Assembly (NCBI GenBank): GCA_963555825.3
Contig: CAUVXB020000001.1
Coordinates: forward strand, 320,001-384,000
Reading direction: 5' to 3'
DNA from: Alphaproteobacteria bacterium
GTDB taxonomy: Bacteria > Pseudomonadota > Alphaproteobacteria > JAAXGF01
Length of the DNA: 64,000 nt
In this document: piece by piece, positions 17,859 to 28,075 of the stretch
Position numbering within the stretch: the stretch's first letter is position 1
Layout of the letters: each line of letters begins with the position of its first letter
The notes under the pieces: generated by a model
What the model was told of the DNA's origin: nothing
Databases searched by the model: none
The model's input: the letters and a program-made list of their open reading frames with translations, nothing else
Position numbers and translations under genes: made by a program

Positions 17859-17997
17859 GCGGGCAACGCCGCGGGGTCTGCTTCCCGCCCGTTAGCAGAC
17901 CTTAGAGACATTGAATCGCGGGACAGGGTGTTCGACGCCGGCTTACCGTTCGAAATCGGACACCGCGCGGCGCTTCCGCCAACGTCTGCCGTTGACC

Positions 17998-19681
17998 CAG
18001 CCTGTGTAAAAACGTCGATGGTGTTATGATTCTCTCGTGCTTTGGCGGGAGGGTCTGATGAAGCGTTTTGTCGAGGGTGTCGATCGCAGCCAGGGCACGT
18101 TGTTTCCGGAGCGCCTGGAAGACTGGATCGGCGACGACAACCCGGTTCGGGCGATCGACGTCTTCGTCGATGAGCTCGATCTTGGCGGCCTCGGGTTCGA
18201 CCGGGTCGAGCCGCTGGCGACCGGCAGGCCGGCCTATCATCCTTGCGATTTGTTGAAGCTCTACATCTACGGCTATCTCAACCGGGTTCAGTCGAGCCGT
18301 CGGCTCGAGAGGGAGGCCGGGCGCAATGTGGAAGTGATGTGGCTGGTCGGCCGGCTGGCGCCGGATCACAAGACGATCGCCGACTTCCGCAAGGACAACG
18401 GCCGTGCGATCCGCAAGGTCTGCGCCCGGTTCGTCGCGCTGTGCCGGCAACTCGGGCTGTTCGCCGAGGCGAGCGTGGCGATCGATGGCTCGAAGTTCAA
18501 GGCGGTCAACAGCCGGGACAGGAACTTCACGCGGGCCAAGATGGCGCGGCGGGTGGCGCAGATCGAGGAGAGCGTTGCGCGCTATCTGGACCAGTTGGAC
18601 AGCGCCGACCGGCAAGAGCCGTCGCTGGCGCGCACGACCAAGACGACTCGTCTGGCCGACAAGATCGCGATCCTCAAGGAGGAGATGCGGCGCCTGAAGG
18701 CGCTTGAAGTCGAGCGGCGTGCGAGCCCGGACCAGCAGATCTCTCTGAGCGATCCCGATGCCCGCTCGATGGCGACGAGCGGCCGGGGTTCCGGCGTGGT
18801 CGGCTACAACGTTCAGGCCGCCGTCGACACCAAGCACCACCTGATCGTCGCCCACGAGGTGACCAATCAGGGCACCGACCGCGTCCAGCTCTCAGCCATG
18901 GCGAAGCGGACCAAGGCGGCTCTGGAGACCGACGAGTTGGATGTCGTTGCCGATCGCGGCTACTACAACGGCAAGGAGATTCTGGCCTGCGATGAGGCCG
19001 GCATCACCGTCACATTGCCTAAGCCGCTGACCTCTGGAGCCAAGGCCAAGGGCCGCTTCGGCAAACAGGACTTCGTCTATCTGGCCGCCGACGATGTCTA
19101 TCGCTGCCCGGCCGGCGAGCGTTTGGTCTACCGCTTCACCAGCCAGGAGAGGGGGCTGAGCATGCGGCGCTACTGGACCAACGCCTGTCAGGGATGCGCC
19201 ATCAAGCATCGCTGCACCACGGCCAAGCAGCGCCGCATCACCCGCTGGCAGCACGAGCATGTTCTCGAGGCCGTCGAGAGGCGGCTCGACGAGCACCCGG
19301 AGGCGATGCGTCGGCGGCGCGAGACGGCCGAGCATCCCTTCGGCACCATCAAGTCCTGGATGGGCGCGACGCATTTCCAGACGAAGACGCTGAAACGGGT
19401 GAGGACCGAGATGGCCCTGCACGTGCTGGCCTACAATCTCAAGCGCGTCATGAACATCACGGGCATCGACCCGCTGATCGCGGCGATGAGGACCGCATAG
19501 GCCTCTCTGCGCCGCAAATTGCGCCCATATCCGGCCAAATCGCAGCTCACACCGGCGCCAGCCGGCCGACAGGTCCGCACGAGTGGCGAAAATCCTTAAT
19601 CCCGGAATACCCGCCGCGACGGATCATCGAAGCCAAAGACGCGCCGTACAGATCACGCAGCAAACGTTCTTACACAGTCTG
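17998..19681 (+). mobile_element. IS1182-family element (transposase 18058-19500)
   Basis: TIR CAGCCTGTGTAAAAACG / CGTTCTTACACAGTCTG; 4-bp TSD GACC; GRPAYHP, SSRRLERE, PDHKTIADFR, ADRGY, AEHPFGTIK. Confidence 0.92.
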
Positions 19682-19808
19682 GACCCGAAGCAGACATAGC
19701 GGGGAGCCGGATCAGCCCTTCCCAGAAACCGTGCTAGGACTAACGTAGGAACTGGTACAAATAATGGGGTAGGGCCACCCCATTGATTAGATTTACGCGA
19801 CTTTTAAG

Positions 19809-21449
19809 CCGACATTCCCCAGATGATATCCAAATTCGCGGAAATCGTACCACGGCCCCAACTCCAAGGGAACTCTGTTCCCATTGCAGCCATCCGATGA
19901 CATGATTTTGGTAATCGGCCAGCGCGTGGAAGGCCATTTGGTCGTTTCTCTTGCCATCCAGACACACCTCTCGTGTCGCAATCTCCTTGCCGTCGATTCC
20001 CTCGGCCTACGCCGGAGCGGGTCTTCGTCGTAGATCATCAATCAGGCTCAAGATTTTCTGGAACAAGCTTCTGGGACTGCAACCTCGGCCAATTGAAATG
20101 TGACGTACCGGCCATGGCTGACAACTTTCGCACCGATCTTGACCAGCTTCTCCCTCAGCGTCGTCAGCGACCATTGCTCCACGGCATCGGGCAACGCCAG
20201 GGTACGCATGAAGTTGCCGAGGTTATAGGCGAGTGCATGCAGCTGGAGCCGGACGGCATTGTTGCGTAACGAACGGCATGACAGCCGCGTCCACTTGATG
20301 GCGTTCTTGCCTTCCTTGATCCATTGCTCGGCAGTGCCGCGCTGATTGTAGAACGCAACAACCCGCTCGGCAGGACGGCTCAGGTTGGTGACGATGAAGC
20401 CGACGCGGGGATACAGTTCCCCTGAGTGCCACTCCACCTTGGCGACGACCCGGCGGGGCTTCGTCCAGCTACCGGCCCGATAGCTGAAGTTCGCGTAATA
20501 CCGACGAACTTCCTTCGGCGGCCGACCGACGGGGCGCTTGAGCAGGTGCGCGATGCTGTCGTGCAGCACCTTGTTGGCCGGAAGCCGGATGGCGTACTTG
20601 AAGCCTTCCGCTTCCAGAAACTCATAAACCTCGGGCGAGGCGAAGGCGGCGTCACCACGGAAATAACGCCGGAGTGTCTTGTTCCGGTATCGAGCGACCA
20701 CCGGGTCCAACACATCGCGCCATTCATGGGCGCTGTGCACGTTGCCCGGACGCAGGGCGCAACGCTCCAGATCGCCGAACTGGTTGAACACGAACAGCGG
20801 GTGATAGCACGTGCAGCCGAAGTGACCGTTGTAGGCCGTGCCCTCCTGGTCACCGTAGGTCGGGCTGACGGAGCTGTCCATGTCGAGCACGATAATCTTC
20901 GGCGGCTTGCGCTCGTTAACCTGGTCGATCCAGATGCCCAAAAGGTCAGCGAGCGCGGCGAGGTTGTCATTGGTGGCGAGTAACTCCGTCTCGAACCGGC
21001 CCATCTGGCTGGTCGATGCGCCGCCGCGCTCGACAGCCCTGCCGCCGACGATCCACCGCATCGCAGGATCGCGCCCCAGCCGGTCGGCGTCGTTCACGTC
21101 CTCGTACCCGGCGAGACGACCATAGACGGATTGGCGAAGGAGACCGATGATGCCGTGCCAACCGTTCTTGCCGGTCCGGCTGTCAGCAATAACGTCACCG
21201 GCCAGCGTGGTCAGGCCGAGGGCTTCGTCCAGTTCACGATAGGCGAGCAGACCAGCGTCTGACGTGATCCGCGAACCGTGGAACTCGAACTTCAGTCTTC
21301 GGTCGAAAAACGCCCGCAGAAGCCCCCGATCCGACTCACCCTCCAGGTTCCGCATTCGACCCACCCTCCGTCTGATCTAATCCACTGATTCTTATACAGG
21401 AATCAGACGGAAACCGCATCAGATGGATCGGTCACTTGGGGAATGCGGG
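19809..21449 (-). mobile_element. IS1380-family element A (transposase about 20007-21355, frameshift near the C-terminus)
   Basis: TIR CCGACATTCCCCAG / CTTGGGGAATGCGGG; TSD TTAAG; ITSDAGLL, LDMDSS, RGDAAF, YNQRGTAEQWIKE. Confidence 0.9.
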
Positions 21450-21471
21450 TTAAGACTAAGTGGGCGATCTC

Positions 21472-23871
21472 ATGAATTTGGACCTCGGCCAGACCACCTC
21501 ATGCGGCGGCGCAGACTTTTACGTCGTAATCAAGGAGCAAGGACACAAAGACCCCGATCTGCCTGTCTGGACCTGCACTGAACCCGGAAGTATCCGTTAT
21601 CATGAACGACCTGCTGCTGTCGTAGAACGCAAAGACTTGTCAGAAATCACCGGCGCTTTTCATCTGTTGAATGTGCTGAGCGACGAGGAATGCGATCGTT
21701 TTGTGCAAATCAGTGAAGCTTTGGGCTATCACGGCGATGCTCCTGTTTCACTCCCACGCAGTATTCGTCACAACAATAATCTGAACTGGATCGTTGATGA
21801 GAGTGTGGACGGCCCGATCTGGGGTCGTTGTCGAAGTTTCTTTGGAGTTTCCGCATTCGATGGTCAACATCCGTTGGGCCTCAATGCCAGATTTAGGTTC
21901 TACCGTTATCCGACATTCCCCATATACCATCCAAATTCGTGGAAATCGTAGCACTTTCCCACCGCCAAGGGAACTGTATCCCCTATGCAGCCATCCGATG
22001 GCATGATTTTGGTAATCGGCCCGCGCTTGGAAGGCCACTCGGTCATTTTTCTCGCCATCCAGACACACCTCTCCTGTCGCTTTCTCCTCGCCGTCGATTC
22101 CCTCGGCCTACGCCGGAGCGGGTCTTCGTCGCAGATCATCAATCAAGCTCAGGATTTTCCGGAACAGGTCCCTCGGCACCGCCACCTCAGCCAATTGGAA
22201 CGTAACGTAGCGGCCATGTCGGACAACCTTGGCCCCGATCTTCACCAGCTTGTCGCGCAACGTCGTCATCGACCAGTGCTCCACCTCCTTCGGCAAAGCC
22301 AGTGTCCTCATGAAGTTGCCCAGATTGTAGGCCAGGGCGTGAAGCTGGAGCCGAACGGCATTGTTGCGGAACTTGCGACATGACAGACGGGTCCAGTTGA
22401 TGGCGTTCTTGCCTTCCTTGATGTGCTGCTCCGCCGTGCCACGGTGATTATAGAACGCCACCACCCGCTTGGTAGGGCGCGACAGATTAGTGACGATGAA
22501 ACCGACGCGAGGAACCAGCTCGCCGGGGTGCCACTCCACTTTGGCCACGACACGGCGCTTCTTGTTCCACGATCCGGCCTGATAGCTGAAGCTGGCGTGG
22601 AAACGGCGAACATGGTCGGGCGGGCGACCGACAGGTCGCGTAAGCAGATGGGCAATGTTCCGCTGGAGAATCGCGTTCGCTTTGAGGCGGATGACGTAGA
22701 GTAATCCCTCGGCTTCGAGATATTCGTATATCTCCGGTGAGGCGAAGGCGGCATCGCCACGAAAATACAGCCGCACCTTCCTTTCCTTATAGCGCATCAC
22801 CACCGGCTCCAGAACATTCCGCCATCCGTCGGCACTGTGAACATTACCGGGGCGCAGGGAACATCTCTCCAAGTCGCCGAACTGGTTGAACAGGAATAGC
22901 GGATGCTAGCAGGTACAGCCGAAGTGACCATTGTACGCTGTTCCCTCTTGTTCGCCATGGGTCGGGCTGACGCTGCTGTCCATGTCGAGAATGATCATCT
23001 TCGGCGGATGGCGGTCATGAACCTTGTCGATCCACACCCCGTTCATGTCGACCAAGGCTTCAACGTTCTCGTCGGTGGCCAATAGCTCCGTCTCGAAGCG
23101 TCCCATCTGGCTGGTGGAAGCGGCCTGTCTTTCGATGGCCTTGCCGCCAACAATCCAGCGCATGGCGGGATCGCGTCCCAGACGGTCGGCGTCGTTCACA
23201 TCGTCATAGCCGCCAAGGCGCCCGAAAACGGACTGGCGAAACTGACCCGTCATGCCGTGCCATCCGTTCTTGCCGGTACGGCTATCCTGGAAAACACCCT
23301 CGGCCATCTCAGTCAGGCCGAGGGCATCGTCAAGCTCCCGGTAGGCGAGCAACCCGGCATCAGAGGTGATCTTGGAACCGTGGAATTCAAGCTTCAATCG
23401 ACGGTCAAAAACGACCCGAAGGCACCCCGGTTTCGATTCACCCATCGGGTGTGCCATATCCGCCGCTCCATGTATGCTACAACTTCATGATTCTTATAGC
23501 AGAATCGCCTTCTCGCCGCACTGAATATCGACGATACTTGGGAAATGCGGGGTTATAGTAGGGGCGATTTTTTCGACCCCCACACAGATGGTGCATGGCC
23601 AGGTAGTCGGGTCGTCAATGGCCAACTCGTGGCTGATGCATATGGCGATCGGCTAAGCCAAATGACGGTTCTGATTTTTTTGTCTGATGGGTACGAGGGT
23701 GGTCGCACCTTGTTCCACACGGGCCAGACATCAATCGTCCCAGTTCATACACCGAAGGGGGCGATCTTGTGCTTCCCCCATGGCATGCATCCCCAGCACT
23801 GCATTCATGCTGGCGAGGAAGTGACGGCTGGGCAAAAGTACATTATCCGGACCGATGTGTTGTATGGCTGA
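21472..23871 (+). pseudogene. 2OG-Fe(II) oxygenase (prolyl-hydroxylase-like) split by IS1380 element B
   Basis: Removing 21910-23556 restores RFRFYRY|SRGDFFDPHTDG (HxD)...HAGEEV...KYIIRTDVLY. Confidence 0.88.
21910..23551 (-). mobile_element. IS1380-family element B (transposase 22108-23457, internal stop at 22906-22908)
   Basis: Same TIR type as element A; TSD GTTAT; GHFGCTC*HPLF where element A has Tyr. Confidence 0.9.
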
Positions 23872-24157
23872 TTGACGACGCCAGATTGCCCTACTCCACG
23901 AATACGCGGGTTGGGCAAGGAGGTAATCCGGCTCCTCAACCTCGCTCCTCTAAGCCTGCTGGCGGCTATGAGGAGGCATCCATCCGAATGGCATTTGTCA
24001 GCTTACCGCTCGAAAGCGGACGCCCAGCGTGTCAGCCGCCGAGGTCTGCTCCTGACCCAGGCTGTGTAAAAACCGCCCCCGAGCGCTATTGGCACGATTT
24101 TCTCTGACTTCTCGAATTTCTAAACTCAACAAAATCAACATCTTATCAGACCACCTA

Positions 24158-24195
24158 TAGAAGAATTGACCGGGAATAGAAGAATTGACTGGGAA
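24158..24195 (+). repeat. 19-bp tandem repeat x2 inside the MITE
   Basis: TAGAAGAATTGACCGGGAA / TAGAAGAATTGACTGGGAA. Confidence 0.85.
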
Positions 24196-24324
24196 CTCTC
24201 CTGTTAGTGGTATTTGCCGGCGTTTTTACACATGGCGTAACTCGGGGATCGGGCACTGCTCTCCTTAATGTAGCAACGACCGGCATGGGCCGGGCGAGCA
24301 CACTGAAAGAGCAGGAGAGCAGCT

Positions 24325-25356
24325 ATGGAACTGTATGTTGGAATGGATGTATCGCTCAAGGAGACCTCGATCTGCGTGGTCGATGACAACGGCGAGATCG
24401 TGTCCGAGGGCGTGGTGATCTCGGAGCCGGCGGCAATCGCGGCGTATATCAGGACAACGGCGCCGCACGCAAAGCGCATCGGTCTGGAGACCGGTCCGAC
24501 GACGACCTGGCTGTGGCATGAGCTCAGGGCGCTCGGCTTGCCGGTGATCTGCATCGATGCGCGTCATGCCAAGGCGGCGCTGTCGATGCAGATCAACAAG
24601 AGCGACCGGAACGATGCCGCCGGGATCGCGCGGATCATGCAGTGCGGTTGGTACAAGGAGGTCCAAGTCAAGAGCGTGGCGTGCCACGAGATACGGGCCG
24701 TCCTGAACAGCCGGGCCCAGTTGGTCAAGATCAAGCGTGATCTCGAGAACCAGATCCGTGGCTTGCTCAAGAACCTCGGCCTCGTCATCGGCAAGGCGGG
24801 CGGCAATGTCTTCCGTCGCCGGGTCGAAGAGCTGCTTGGCGGGCAGGGTCTTTTGTCGGAGGCCGTTCGGCCCCTTCTGGAAGTCCGCGAGAAGGTCGGC
24901 CGAGAGATCGCCGCGCTCTATCGCAAGCTGCTGGGCCTGGCGCGGAACGACGAGGACAGCAGACGTTCCATGACGGTTCCAGGCATCGGGCCGATCACCG
25001 CCTTGGCCTTCCACTCGGCGATCGACGAGCCGAGCCGCTTCCGACGTTCCCGGAGTGTCGGCGCGTACATCGGGCTGACGCCGCGCCGCCATGCTTCCGG
25101 CGAGGTCGATTGGACGGGGCGGATCTCCAAATGCGGCGATCGAATGCTCAGGACCTACCTCTTCGAGGCGGCCGGCGTGCTGCTCACCCGGGTGCCGCGA
25201 TGGTGCGCGCTCAAGGCCTGGGGTCACAGGTTGTGGAAACGCATCGGCTTCAAGAAGGCCAAGATCGCCGTGGCACGGAAGCTGGCGGTCATCCTCCATC
25301 GCATGTGGCGTGATGGAACGGACTTCATCTGGTCAACCAAAGAGGCGGCCGCATAG
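24325..25356 (+). CDS. IS110 recombinase/transposase (DEDD RuvC-like + Tnp domain)
   Basis: [40 protein letters not shown]...GRISKCG. Confidence 0.95.
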   Translation: MELYVGMDVSLKETSICVVDDNGEIVSEGVVISEPAAIAAYIRTTAPHAKRIGLETGPTTTWLWHELRALGLPVICIDARHAKAALSMQINKSDRNDAAGIARIMQCGWYKEVQVKSVACHEIRAVLNSRAQLVKIKRDLENQIRGLLKNLGLVIGKAGGNVFRRRVEELLGGQGLLSEAVRPLLEVREKVGREIAALYRKLLGLARNDEDSRRSMTVPGIGPITALAFHSAIDEPSRFRRSRSVGAYIGLTPRRHASGEVDWTGRISKCGDRMLRTYLFEAAGVLLTRVPRWCALKAWGHRLWKRIGFKKAKIAVARKLAVILHRMWRDGTDFIWSTKEAAA

Positions 25357-25369
25357 GGAAACAACGTCC

Positions 25370-25560
25370 AAGCATTCCGCGAGAGCGGAACCGATGCCCC
25401 TGTCGGGACGGCGGCGTCGGCGAGATCGATCCAGGCTTTGCGATGCCTCACCGAGGCAAGCGCGCTTCACACATTGATCCGCCAACGTCCTCCAACGCCA
25501 TCATGCGGAGGGCCGAGCCCCTACCGCGGAGAGAACAGTGAACCCGGCAGGTACGTCACG
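25370..25560 (+). ncRNA. Putative bridge/seek RNA of the IS110 element (copy 1); RNA ends approximate
   Basis: Target loop CCAGGCT (25431-25437) and TTCACAC (25466-25472); donor loop ACGCCAT (25495-25501) and AGAGAAC (25530-25536); each pair brackets an inner hairpin. Confidence 0.8.
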
Positions 25561-25592
25561 GAGAGCTTGACAACCAACCCCCGAGTTAGAGA

Positions 25593-26224
25593 ACGTTCCA
25601 TGACGGTTCCAGGCATCGGGCCGATCACCGCCTTGGCCTTCCACTCGGCGATCGACGAGCCGAGCCGCTTCCGACGTTCCCGGAGTGTCGGCGCGTACAT
25701 CGGGCTGACGCCGCGCCGCCATGCTTCCGGCGAGGTCGATTGGACGGGGCGGATCTCCAAATGCGGCGATCGAATGCTCAGGACCTACCTCTTCGAGGCG
25801 GCCGGCGTGCTGCTCACCCGGGTGCCGCGATGGTGCGCGCTCAAGGCCTGGGGTCACAGGTTGTGGAAACGCATCGGCTTCAAGAAGGCCAAGATCGCCG
25901 TGGCACGGAAGCTGGCGGTCATCCTCCATCGCATGTGGCGTGATGGAACGGACTTCATCTGGTCAACCAAGGAGGCGGCCGCATAGGGAAACAACGTCCA
26001 AGCATTCCGCGAGAGCGGAACCGATGTCCCTGTCGGGACGGCGGCGTCGGCGAGATCGATCCAGGCTTTGCGATGCCTCACCGAGGCAAGCGCGCTTCAC
26101 ACATTGATCCGCCAACGTCCTCCAACGCCATCATGCGGAGGGCCGAGCCCCTACCGCGGAGAGAACAGTGAACCCGGCAGGTACGTCACGGAGAGCTTGA
26201 CAACCAACCCCCGAGTTAGAGAAC
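25593..26224 (+). repeat. 630-bp tandem duplication of the IS110 3' third and right end, including a second bridge RNA copy
   Basis: Repeats 24963-25594; two substitutions seen (25341 A/25971 G and 25397 C/26027 T). Confidence 0.9.
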
Positions 26225-26504
26225 AGCCTGGACCCGTTGCGGGCATGACGCGGCATGGCGAAATTGGTCTGCAAGCCTGGGGCGATCTCGCCGACACCGT
26301 TCGGCGTGCTTACGCCCTTCGACCGGAAGGACGTTCACACCTCACCCGACAGGGAGATCGCTTCCGCCCTTGCGGAAATCATGGGGGTTGTTGCTTCTAA
26401 GCGGCCGCCTACCTGGCTGACCAGATGAAATCAGTTTCATCACGCGACATGCGATGCAGCATGACAAAGCCCCCGCGGGCACTTCGGATCGGAATCGGAG
26501 CGGC

Positions 26505-26687
26505 GGCGAGAGCGGCATGACCATGATCGTGGTGACCCATGAAATGGACTTCGCCCGCACAGTCGCCGACGAGATGGTTTTCATGGACGACGGTCGCATC
26601 ATCGAATCGGCTCTGCCCGACGCGTTCTTCTCGACGACCAAGAGCGACTGCACCAAGCTGTTCCTGAGCCAGATTCTATCGCATTGA
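26505..26687 (+). pseudogene. C-terminal fragment of a polar amino acid ABC transporter ATPase
   Basis: GMTMIVVTHEMDFARTVADEMVFMDDGRIIE...KLFLSQILSH; no Walker A region upstream. Confidence 0.85.
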
Positions 26688-26900
26688 CGGGCCCGGTTCG
26701 CCGCCGGTGTCGGGCTTTTGCCGTAGGGCCGGGAGTCACCTCCTGCCTGTCCCTCCAGTTCATCTCATTCGGGCCACCAACGGATTCTTCGCCGCCGCCG
26801 GCGACGCGCTTCTCATCGAAACGCAGGTGTAGCGTGACAAGGCGATGGAGGGGTGAAGTGAGCGCGTTCCGAATGCCGGTTGCCGGCCGTAGCCATATCA

Positions 26901-28075
26901 TACCAGTGAGCGCCTGAATTGACTCTCGGGATATTCATTGATGGCGGATGATGGCGGATTGTGATTCTATGGTCTCCCACCAGATGTGGGGGATGTCATG
27001 GGATCAGCACTCAAGATACGGGATGATTTGACGCCTTTGGAGCTTCGGCGCTGGGCTCGCGTGGAATCGTACGGTCGAGCGGCGGCGCGGGCCTATGGGA
27101 TCGCGAATGCTTTGGAGGAGATGCCCCGGGCTGATGCCGCGCGGCTTGCGGGGATGGATCGCCAAACGCTTCGCGACGCGGTTGTTCGTTACAATGCAAA
27201 GGGATTGGAGGGGCTTCACGACCGTCCAAAGGGCTACTCGCCGCGGCGGCTGACGGCAGACGAGGAAGCGGCGCTGGCGGCGGTCATCATCGCCGGGCCG
27301 GAGCCTGAGCGCGACGGGGTTTGCGCCTGGACCCGGGCCGATCTGTGCCGCTGGCTGGAGGAGCGCTTCGCCAAGACCTACCACCCCTCGAGCATGACCC
27401 GGGTTCTACGGCGGATGGGATTTTCCCGCCAGAAGGCGCGCCCGAGCCACCCGCGAAGGGACGCCGAAGCGCAGGAGCGCTTCAAAAAAGGGGGCTTCGC
27501 GACATCCTGAAGGCGACCGCCGCGGCGCATCCCGACAAGCGCCTACAGCTGTGGTTTCAGGATGAAGCGCGCGTCGGCAACAAGGGCCGGGTGTGTCACC
27601 GGTGGTGGCGCAGGGGCGAGCGTGCCCCCGGGACGCGTCAAATCGGCTACCAGTGGGCCTACATCTTCTCCGCCGTGCGCCCGGACACCGGCGACGACGT
27701 CACCCTGGTGATGCCGAGCGTCAACGCCAAGGTCATGGACCTGTTTCTCGCACACTTCGCCGATACCCTGGACCAGGATGCGCACGCCGTCATGATGTGC
27801 GACGGCGCCGGTTGGCACGACGAGCGCGCCCTCACCGTCCCCGACAACGTCACCTTGGCGCTGTTGCCGCCTTACAGTCCCGAACTCAACCCCGTCGAGC
27901 GGGTTTGGCTCTACCTACGCGAACGCTTCCTATCGCTCCGCGTCCTCGACGACACCGAGGCCATCATCGACGCCTGTTGCCAAGCATGGATCGACCTCAT
28001 CGCAGAACCGGATCGTATGCGAACCCTCTGCGCCTATCCATGGATCATGAAGGTGATTTCATAGGCTCACTGGTA
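26901..28075 (+). mobile_element. IS630-family element, copy 2
   Basis: Identical ORF translations to copy 1 in inverted orientation; flanks TCA/TCA; AAAAAAG at 27484-27490. Confidence 0.93.

What the first reader, a model, noticed from the sequence alone, without database searches (positions are those of the whole stretch)
24221..25594. IS110 bridge RNA readable from sequence and apparently programmed against IS1182-type terminal repeats
Seen: the element sits at ...TTTTTAC[AC]AGCCTGG, i.e. CCAGGCT-GT-GTAAAA on the other strand. Its 3' non-coding end has a stem GATCGAT/ATTGATC enclosing an internal loop with CCAGGCT (25431-25437, identical to the left target) and TTCACAC (25466-25472, reverse complement GTGTGAA, 6/7 to core plus right target) around hairpin TGCCTC/GAGGCA. 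The predicted circle junction reads ACGCCAT-GT-TCTCT, and a second loop carries ACGCCAT (25495-25501) and AGAGAAC (25530-25536), both exact. Known: IS110/IS1111 recombinases use such bispecific RNAs, and IS4321/IS5075 target Tn21-family IRs. Inference: this is an intact 343-aa RNA-guided recombinase with an AC/GT core whose natural target is the end of another transposon family. An unoccupied identical site remains at 24057 and a 1-mismatch site at 17997.
Basis: partly seen in the sequence, partly recalled or inferred. Interest (0 to 1): 0.92.

Follow-up and report, generated by a model that had tools for sequence, protein, structure and literature searches.

The report
RNA-guided IS1111-type element in IS1182/MITE ends
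This is an intact IS110-family (IS1111-group) insertion sequence whose 3' bridge (seek) RNA guides can be read from the DNA; it inserts into the tips of another transposon family and is a good new example of a mechanism described in 2024, not a new mechanism.

Summary
The left end starts at 24232 after TTTTTAC-AC. 25594 is only the first right end. 25595-26224 is a tandem repeat of 24965-25594, and the quoted flank AGCCTGG lies at 26225-26231.

The 343-aa ORF is an IS110-family recombinase with IS1111-group hallmarks: a 10-bp subterminal inverted repeat, a long 3' non-coding end and a GLxPxxxxSG motif.

All 6 genomic copies sit in the same site. Across 57 distinct guide/flank combinations, drawn from 69 related loci plus the window's own element, both target guides covary with their flanks (0 of 2000 shuffles). 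The two-loop fold has 6 compensatory pairs.

The target exists only at tips of an IS1182-family element and of MITEs that share its terminal motif. In 28 of 80 related loci an IS1182-family transposase gene lies in the flank.

Tandem right-end duplications occur in 4 of 6 copies, each joined at an internal AC. They fit the 'half-match' recombination of 2026 preprints.

RNA expression is not shown. Verdict: new member of a known kind.

The parts
24232..25594 (+). One unit of the IS1111-group element, 1363 bp: left end ATGGCGT... to right end ...GTTAGAGA plus one copy of the AC core.
   Evidence: 6 full-length copies in the genome at 99.6-100% identity (one with a 34-bp insertion), all with the same junctions.
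24223..24231 (+). Left half of the target (TTTTTAC) plus core AC. This is the inner tip (GT-GTAAAAA on the other strand) of the MITE.
   Evidence: The 3' target guide TTCAC-AC matches it at 6 of 7 positions. It matches the copy at C2:1374255 at 7 of 7.
24238..24247 (+). Left subterminal inverted repeat TAACTCGGGG. Its partners CCCCGAGTTA are at 25579-25588 and 26209-26218.
24325..25356 (+). Recombinase gene, 343 aa: DEDD RuvC-like domain, Tnp domain, and motif [10 protein letters not shown].
   Evidence: PF01548 60.9 bits, PF02371 80 bits; NF033542 252 bits, cut-off 140; C-terminal part aligns with IS621 and ISCro4.
25402..25548 (+). Bridge/seek RNA core. Closing helix 25402-25407 with 25543-25548 encloses both loops.
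   Evidence: 34 pairs, 99.3% of cells paired in 54 sequences, 6 pairs with compensatory change.
25419..25483 (+). Target-binding loop. Stem 25419-25428 with 25475-25483. 5' guide CCAGGCT 25431-25437. Inner helix 25439-25442 with 25461-25464. Apical hairpin 25444-25458. 3' guide TTCACAC 25466-25472.
   Evidence: guide/flank covariation.
25491..25541 (+). Donor-binding loop. Outer pairs 25491-25492 with 25540-25541. 5' guide ACGCCAT 25495-25501 (reverse complement of the left end). Inner stem 25501-25511 with 25520-25532. 3' guide AGAGAAC 25530-25536 (same as right end plus core).
25595..26224 (+). Tandem repeat of 24965-25594, joined at an internal AC. It carries a truncated recombinase 3' part, a second complete RNA gene (about 26032-26178) and a second right end.
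   Evidence: D1, spacing 630; 632 bp, 99.68%.
26225..26231 (+). Right half of the target, AGCCTGG (CCAGGCT on the other strand).
24057..24231 (.). MITE of about 170 bp with the IS1182-type terminal motif at both ends. The end at 24057-24071 is free (CCAGGCTGTGTAAAA). The other end is split by the element.
   Evidence: other copies, for example C2:579218/579367, with ends 149 bp apart.
17997..19682 (+). Full-length IS1182-family element, transposase gene 18037-19500, with tips CCAGCCTGTGTAAAA and CCAGACTGTGTAAGA.
   Evidence: DUF772, DDE_Tnp_1_6; NF033551 451.5 bits; about 15 such pairs 1671 bp apart.
26273..26465 (-). Inverted remnant of the 3' part of a related IS110-family element (end of the recombinase gene, start of its RNA gene), cut just after its own guide CCCAGGCT.
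   Evidence: I1, I3, I6/I7; 80% over 121 nt.

Best explanation
The locus holds an active-looking IS1111-group member of the IS110 family.

Its DEDD/serine recombinase is guided by a roughly 150-nt RNA encoded in the 3' non-coding end. One internal loop of that RNA pairs with both strands of the target: CCAGGCT on one side of the GT/AC core, GTGAA/GTAAA on the other. A second loop pairs with the joined ends of the element (ACGCCAT-GT-TCTCT). A circular copy is thereby recombined into the target at the core dinucleotide without a target duplication.

The target is the tip of the terminal repeat of an IS1182-family transposon and of MITEs that carry the same tip, so the element lives inside other transposons.

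Shown here: family membership, site specificity, RNA fold conservation and guide/flank covariation. Inferred from the family's published mechanism: that the RNA is made, binds the protein and directs recombination.

The tandem repeats of the right end are best read as by-products of recombination. In that reading the right end plus core (a half-match to the donor loop) is recombined with an internal AC.
For: Protein:
- Pfam PF01548 and PF02371; NCBIfam 'IS110 family RNA-guided transposase', 252 bits against a cut-off of 140.
- The segment [11 protein letters not shown] aligns with GLTPRRYESGS of IS621.

IS1111 traits:
- 10-bp subterminal inverted repeat.
- 3' non-coding end of 238 nt against 93 nt at the 5' end.
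- 343 aa.
- The top-strand-complementary guide lies 5' of the bottom-strand one, as in the seekRNA preprint (sections 5 and 8 read).

Site specificity:
- 6 of 6 full copies share the same junctions.
- Copies occupy 4 of 15 tips reading CCAGGCT against 2 of 70 other tips, Fisher p = 0.008.

Guides, in 57 distinct guide/flank combinations:
- 5' target guide against right flank: 6.23 of 8 matches, against 4.44 when shuffled.
- 3' guide against left flank: 5.53 of 8, against 3.96. For both, 0 of 2000 shuffles reached the observed value.
- The 3' guide (5 nt plus core) is exact in 48 of 57.
- The donor 3' guide is exact in 68 of 70 elements. Both donor guides are 7 of 7 in this element.

Fold:
- 34 pairs, 99.3% paired, 6 pairs with compensatory change against 1.8 in shuffles (0 of 500). 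Slid controls gave at most 3.

Target identity:
- 49 of 79 free tips continue into the IS1182-family element.
- 28 of 80 related loci have an IS1182-family transposase hit in the flank. By my reading's hit list, about 22 of them end within 150 bp of the left end.

Duplications:
- 4 of 6 copies here and 1 of 80 related loci (L063) carry one. All 5 junctions lie at an internal AC.
Against: - There is no direct evidence that the RNA exists or where it starts and ends. RNA-library contigs (X15, X16) cover the 3' end, but contigs show neither strand nor ends, and DNA may be present in such libraries.
- No sigma-70-like promoter was found at 24000-26500.
- No circle junction was seen.
- The 3' target guide mismatches 5 of the 6 occupied sites at one position (TTCAC against TTTAC).
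- The donor 5' guide is exact in only 7 of 70 relatives, with 56 at 6 of 7.
- 8 of 57 combinations have a right flank matching the guide at 3 or fewer of 8 positions. Two are parsing errors (L049, L053) and one is a tandem duplication (L063). Five are unexplained: L019, L025, L050, L075, L092.
- The single-sequence fold is not exceptional: z = -2.3 for 238 nt and -1.4 for 151 nt.
Confidence: 0.9

Rival explanations
1. The real target is a host repeat (a REP-like imperfect palindrome) that both the IS1182-type elements and this element happen to use. It would not be the IS1182-type end as such.
For: The 20-25 nt outside GTGTAA differ between otherwise near-identical IS1182/MITE copies and follow only a consensus (aATGTCyGC-N4-GRY-CCAGNCT). 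The two flanks of one copy are inverted, not direct, repeats. The same outer pattern is seen in other genomes.
Against: The inner half of the target (GT-GTAAAAAC) lies in the invariant body of the IS1182-type element or MITE. No free palindrome of the expected form exists in the genome. CCAG-N-CT is kept at nearly all of 79 tips of several element types. IS1182-family genes abut the left end in other genomes.
Confidence: 0.1
2. The loop motifs are passive copies of flank and end sequence (for example picked up by imprecise excision), and the protein alone reads the site.
For: No RNA or binding data exist for this element. The single-sequence fold is not exceptional.
Against: The guides sit at fixed positions in a conserved fold with compensatory changes. 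They covary with the flanks across 57 combinations. The family's RNA-guided mechanism is shown experimentally for IS1111-group members (seekRNA preprint: abstract and sections 5, 8 and 12 read).
Confidence: 0.03
3. The tandem repeats of the right end are assembly errors or replication slippage, not products of the recombinase.
For: Short-read contigs collapse the repeat, and no listed contig bridges 25594/25595 (79 pieces were not shown). The shared junction homology is only 2-4 nt.
Against: Five independent duplications (units of 630, about 203 twice, 122, 23 and 142 bp) all end exactly at the right end plus core and start after an internal AC. The two copies in the window differ at 2 positions. 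A 2026 preprint reports tandem repeat units at IS110 loci that keep almost only the left-donor match (passages read).
Confidence: 0.1

Closest known systems
IS1111-group elements with seekRNA (ISEc11, ISKpn4, ISPa11, ISPst6; Siddiquee et al., preprint 10.1101/2024.04.26.591405)
   Same: Recombinase of 330-350 aa with GL-P----S/TG. Subterminal inverted repeats. Long non-coding end downstream of the gene that encodes the guide RNA. The top-strand-complementary segment lies 5' of the bottom-strand one. Insertion is site-specific without target duplication.
   Different: The target sequence and core (AC/GT) differ. There are no experiments on this element, and the RNA ends are unknown.
IS621 bridge RNA system (Durrant et al. 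PMC11208160; Hiraizumi et al. PMC11208158)
   Same: A two-loop RNA, one loop for the target and one for the donor, each reading both strands around a 2-nt core. DEDD plus serine recombinase. A circular donor junction.
   Different: In IS621 the RNA lies in the left end and the guide order is reversed (stated for IS110-type against IS1111-type in the seekRNA abstract). The IS621 core is CT. Only the C-terminal domain aligns by phmmer (E = 3e-9).
IS4321 / IS5075 (Partridge and Hall 2003; title seen in the reference list of PMC11208160)
   Same: IS1111-group elements that insert at one position and in one orientation in the terminal inverted repeats of another transposon family.
   Different: Their host transposons are of the Tn21 family. 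Here the hosts are an IS1182-family insertion sequence and its MITEs. That paper was not read here.
Expanded IS110 loci and half-match recombination (preprints 10.64898/2026.08.14.744561 and 10.64898/2026.08.31.748434); ISPpu9 modules (PMC12288879)
   Same: Tandem repeats of partial modules next to the recombinase gene whose unit boundaries keep the left-donor (right end) match only. Recombination at the core dinucleotide of otherwise unmatched sites.
   Different: Those studies concern IS110-group elements (IS621, ISPpu9) and large loci. Here it is a small IS1111-group element in which the repeats multiply the RNA gene itself.

Membership tests
IS110 family | N-terminal DEDD (RuvC-like) transposase domain | tested here: met
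   PF01548, residues 5-150, 60.9 bits against a cut-off of 29. GMDVS, GLETG and SDRNDA are seen in the translation; naming these as the catalytic residues is recalled.
IS110 family | C-terminal Tnp domain with the catalytic serine | tested here: met
   PF02371, 80 bits. HASGE aligns with YESGS of IS621. That this serine is catalytic in IS621 is recalled.
IS110 family | Curated whole-protein model | tested here: met
   NF033542, 252.3 bits against a cut-off of 140.
IS110 family | Site-specific insertion with a shared core dinucleotide at both junctions and no other target duplication | tested here: met
   6 of 6 copies read ...AC|ATGGCG...GAGA|AC|AG...
IS1111 group | Subterminal inverted repeats of 7-17 bp | tested here: met
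   TAACTCGGGG at 24238-24247 and CCCCGAGTTA at 25579-25588. The criterion is from PMC11208160.
IS1111 group | The longer non-coding region lies downstream of the gene | tested here: met
   238 nt at the 3' end against 93 nt at the 5' end.
IS1111 group | Transposase of 330-350 aa with GL-P----S/TG | tested here: met
   343 aa with [10 protein letters not shown].
Bridge RNA / seekRNA | A conserved fold with two internal loops | tested here: met
   5 helices and 6 compensatory pairs. No Rfam family matched.
Bridge RNA / seekRNA | Target-loop guides complementary to both strands of the target and covarying with it | tested here: met
Bridge RNA / seekRNA | Donor-loop guides matching the joined ends | tested here: met
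   7 of 7 and 7 of 7 here. In relatives, 68 of 70 are exact for the right end. For the left end, 7 of 70 are exact and 56 are 6 of 7.
Bridge RNA / seekRNA | The RNA is expressed and bound by the recombinase | tested here: inconclusive
   RNA-library contigs cover the region but give no ends or strand. Binding is not testable with these tools.
IS1182 family (the host element) | Transposase matching the curated model | tested here: met
   NF033551, 451.5 bits against a cut-off of 270.
IS1182 family (the host element) | Exact tip of the terminal inverted repeat, and the target duplication | tested here: inconclusive
   No direct repeats flank the copies and no empty site was found.

The most novel reading that the evidence does not exclude
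A whole clade of IS1111-group elements in Alphaproteobacteria (80 loci, recombinases 69-90% identical) is a dedicated parasite of IS1182-family transposons and their MITEs. Its two target guides diversify in step with the tip of the host transposon's terminal repeat (GT-GTAAAA, GT-GTGAAA, GT-TGAAAA, GT-TGCAAAAG...). Each insertion cuts the repeat tip off the body, so it could act as a reversible brake on IS1182/MITE mobility. The right-end tandem repeats would additionally be a natural record of half-match recombination that multiplies the guide-RNA gene.
Probability: 0.4. Interest if true: 0.55.

Novelty: new member of a known kind. Interest (0 to 1): 0.35.

Why it matters
It is a clean natural case in which all four guide segments of an IS1111-type bridge/seek RNA can be read and checked against 6 insertions and dozens of relatives. 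The alignment gives a ready set of natural guide/target pairs, including tolerated mismatches, for a compact RNA-guided recombinase.

It extends the 'transposon that targets another transposon's end' habit from the Tn21 family to the IS1182 family and its MITEs.

It adds IS1111-group examples of right-end-anchored tandem duplication at the core dinucleotide. That bears on the off-target behaviour of bridge recombinases.

None of this changes the known mechanism.

Tried and rejected
- Rfam, E-value mode, 23500-27000: one chance hit to a mammalian lncRNA model and no bridge-RNA family.
- Single-sequence folds pair parts of the guides and are not exceptional. The comparative fold was used instead.
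- My first anchor for the 5' target guide picked wrong sites. I replaced it with alignment columns.
- Searches for a free palindromic target of the IS1182-type element found none.
- Empty-site search in 30 related genomes with two MITE loci (L097, L098): no same-genus genome and no orthologous empty site. A third fetched locus, L099, was not used.
- Sequencing runs: the stretch is held by metagenome and organism-labelled runs of 7 studies. Laid contigs of X15, X16, X1 and X4 gave no circle junction and no bridging of the duplication joint. One weak joint (24262 to 26188, side 29, one contig) was set aside. Parts without cover mean nothing.
- Promoter scan at 24000-26500: 0 sites. By eye, a TTGACA in the right end (25570-25575, kept in relatives) lies 18 nt before the end. 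I did not test a junction promoter because that needs a joined sequence.
- Additional right-end motifs in 5 of 80 related loci: only L063 is a true tandem duplication. L024, L070 and L077 are chance look-alikes, and L085 is a neighbouring related element.
- Literature searches found no paper describing IS110/IS1111 elements that target IS1182-family ends. ISfinder and supplementary files could not be consulted and may hold such records.
Full report
**What is there**

The window is G000:C1:320001-384000. At 24223-24231 the + strand reads TTTTTAC-AC, followed by ATGGCGTAACTCGGGG.... A 343-aa ORF runs 24325-25356.
- It carries PF01548 (DEDD_Tnp_IS110) and PF02371 (Transposase_20).
- It scores 252 bits on NCBIfam NF033542, 'IS110 family RNA-guided transposase', cut-off 140.
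- By phmmer only its C-terminal part aligns with solved IS621 and ISCro4 transposases. Its [11 protein letters not shown] lies over GLTPRRYESGS of IS621.

After ...GAGTTAGAGAAC at 25594 the sequence continues GTTCCATGACGG, which is the sequence after 24964.
- 25595-26224 repeats 24965-25594 with 2 mismatches (D1, 632 bp at 99.68%).
- The flank AGCCTGG is at 26225-26231.
- The locus is therefore one full element plus a 630-bp tandem repeat of its 3' part, including a second full copy of the RNA gene.
- 24221 lies 11 nt outside the left end.

**Family and group**

The element has:
- a 10-bp subterminal inverted repeat, TAACTCGGGG at 24238-24247 with CCCCGAGTTA at 25579-25588;
- a 238-nt 3' non-coding end against 93 nt at the 5' end;
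- a 343-aa protein with GL-P----SG.

These are the traits given for the IS1111 group in Durrant et al. (PMC11208160, passages read) and in the seekRNA preprint (10.1101/2024.04.26.591405; abstract and sections 5, 8 and 12 read). Both place the guide RNA of IS1111-type elements downstream of the gene.

The seekRNA preprint states that in IS1111-type RNAs the segment complementary to the top strand lies 5' of the one complementary to the bottom strand. Here CCAGGCT (complementary to the top-strand right flank AGCCTGG) precedes TTCACAC (identical to top-strand left flank plus core). The order fits.

**Site specificity**

The genome (6.04 Mb, 2 contigs) holds 6 full-length copies. All are flanked by GTTTT[T/C]AC-AC on the left and AC-AG[C/T]CT[G/A]G on the right.
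- Right flanks read AGCCTGG in 4 copies, AGTCTGG in 1 and AGCCTAG in 1.
- The left flank is TTTTTAC in 5 copies and TTTTCAC in 1. Only the last matches the guide TTCAC exactly.

**Comparative test of the guides**

A scan of genome contigs found 229 relatives, and the best 80 loci were kept (69-90% aa identity).
- Ends and guides could be parsed in 70 of 80. Failures were L021, L039, L046, L055, L066, L067, L080, L090, L093 and L095.
- 69 loci plus the window's element were usable, giving 57 distinct guide/flank combinations.
- The 5' target guide matches the reverse complement of the right flank at a mean of 6.23 of 8 positions, against 4.44 (sd 0.18) when flanks are shuffled among elements.
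- The 3' guide matches the left flank at 5.53 of 8, against 3.96 (sd 0.15).
- For both, 0 of 2000 shuffles reached the observed value.
- On 7-nt windows the 3' guide plus core is exact in 48 of 57. The 5' guide is exact in 16, 6 of 7 in 23, 5 of 7 in 9 and lower in 9.

Results against my reading:
- 8 combinations match at 3 or fewer of 8 positions on the right flank.
- Two of them (L049, L053) are mis-parsed ends, and L063 is a tandem duplication.
- The other five (L019, L025, L050, L075, L092) are unexplained. Their flanks are not their own internal sequence.

Donor guides:
- The 3' guide AGAGAAC equals the right end plus core in 68 of 70 elements.
- The 5' guide is exact to the left end in only 7 of 70 (this element among them) and is 6 of 7 in 56.

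**Fold**

I aligned 54 distinct 3' ends, the window's plus 53 of the 57 distinct ones. L033, L049, L053 and L063 were left out for odd lengths.

RNAalifold gives:
- a closing helix (window 25402-25407 with 25543-25548);
- the target loop (stem 25419-25428 with 25475-25483; inner helix 25439-25442 with 25461-25464);
- the donor loop (25491-25492 with 25540-25541; 25501-25511 with 25520-25532).

On these 34 pairs, 99.3% of cells pair. Six pairs show changes on both sides, against 1.8 in shuffles (0 of 500 as high), and slid controls give 0-3. Examples are A-U 33 / U-A 19, and C-G 21 / U-A 16 / U-G 16.

The structure was predicted on the same alignment, which favours it. The apical hairpin is misaligned between subgroups and was not scored. 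Rfam 15 has no matching family.

**What the target is**

- CCAGGCTGTGTAAAA with up to 2 mismatches occurs 68 times in the genome.
- A wider pattern finds 79 free sites.
- Inward of GTGTAA, 49 of these 79 continue into the two ends of a 1.67-kb element (about 15 full-length copies). Its 487-aa gene (window 18037-19500) scores 451.5 bits on NCBIfam IS1182.
- The rest are ends of a 2.85-kb variant and of several MITE types.
- All 6 copies of the IS1111-type element sit at MITE ends: 4 at one end type and 2 at the other.
- MITE tips read CCAGGCT, whereas the full-length IS1182 tips mostly read CCAGACT or CCAGCCT. Occupancy is 4 of 15 CCAGGCT tips against 2 of 70 others, Fisher p = 0.008. That fits guide specificity.
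- In other genomes, 28 of 80 related loci have an IS1182-family transposase hit in the 2-kb flank, by tblastn with the window's protein at E <= 1e-5. By my reading's hit list, about 22 of them end within 150 bp of the IS1111-type left end.

The link with IS1182-family ends therefore holds for the clade and not only for this genome.

Not settled: whether CCAGNCT and the semi-conserved, copy-specific 15-20 nt outside it belong to the IS1182-type repeat. No free palindrome and no empty site could be found.

**Right-end duplications**

Four of the 6 copies carry tandem repeats that end exactly at the right end plus core:
- 630 bp here;
- two extra units of about 203 bp at C2:1372476-1372885;
- 122 bp at C1:936502;
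- 23 bp at C1:1666188.

Each starts just after an internal AC. One of these sites is the DNA of the 3' target guide itself (GCTTCAC-AC), a perfect left-target half-site. L063 in another genome has a 142-bp case, also at an internal AC.

This matches what two 2026 preprints describe:
- recombination needing only the core and one matched arm (10.64898/2026.08.31.748434; abstract and sections 8 and 9 read);
- tandem repeat units at IS110 loci that 'retain almost exclusively LD matches' (10.64898/2026.08.14.744561; passages read).

ISPpu9 shows related alternative circles and recombination at stray core dinucleotides (PMC12288879; introduction and discussion read). The route by which the repeats arose is inferred. 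It could be sister-chromatid exchange, or reinsertion of a partial circle beside the right end.

**Expression**

- Contigs of two metatranscriptome runs cover part of the gene and the 3' end, and run on into the flank of another copy. Contigs give no ends or strand, and DNA carry-over is possible.
- No promoter-like site is found in the integrated form.
- Expression therefore remains open.

**Verdict**

The mechanism and the way of reading guides have been in print since 2024, and targeting of another transposon's terminal repeat is known for IS4321/IS5075. I found no paper on IS1182-family ends as targets in four searches.

Noticed in passing
window 19809-23506: Two diverged tandem copies (81-88% identical, spacing about 2102 bp) of an IS1380-family element on the - strand. 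20048-21364 is an intact 438-aa gene. 22108-22872 plus 22906-23457 is a broken one.
   Followed up: partly
genome-wide; window 17941-18013 and 24001-24073: Flanks outside the IS1182-type and MITE tips are imperfect inverted repeats that differ between otherwise near-identical copies. One side often carries a REP-like hairpin (GTCCGCTTACCGCTCGAAAGCGGAC). No unoccupied site of that form exists in the genome.
   Followed up: partly
G000:C1:935246-935280: One of the 6 copies has a 34-bp insertion early in the recombinase gene. That should shift the frame, so this copy is probably inactive.
   Followed up: no
window 26273-26465 (-) and G000:C2:2842355-2842537: Remnants of an older, related IS110-family subfamily (80-88% identical) with an extra segment of about 45 nt before the target loop. 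The C2 remnant has loop CCGAGGT and flank AGCCTCGG, that is, its own matching guide and target.
   Followed up: partly
window 26900-26960 and 26986-27510: The end sequence ATACCAGTGAGCGCCTGAATTGACTC recurs in the genome behind CCAGACTGTGTA as one end of a 2.85-kb element. Here it lacks that tip. It is followed by an ORF with HTH_28/29/32/33 domains.
   Followed up: no
window 26454-26687: A short ORF that by eye looks like the C-terminal end of an ABC-transporter ATPase, apparently cut off by the mobile-element debris upstream. It was not scanned against any library.
   Followed up: no
window 24100-26400 in public runs: Near-identical sequence is held by sponge-metagenome runs and runs of several coded organisms from 7 studies. 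One RNA-library contig (X16, 25399-25495) carries a variant with changes next to both target guides (25430 T>C, 25465 C>A).
   Followed up: no
L085:4763 region: A second, different IS110-family right end with flank AAAATCTGCC lies 1.5 kb downstream of the first element in the same locus. Related elements with different guides therefore sit side by side.
   Followed up: no
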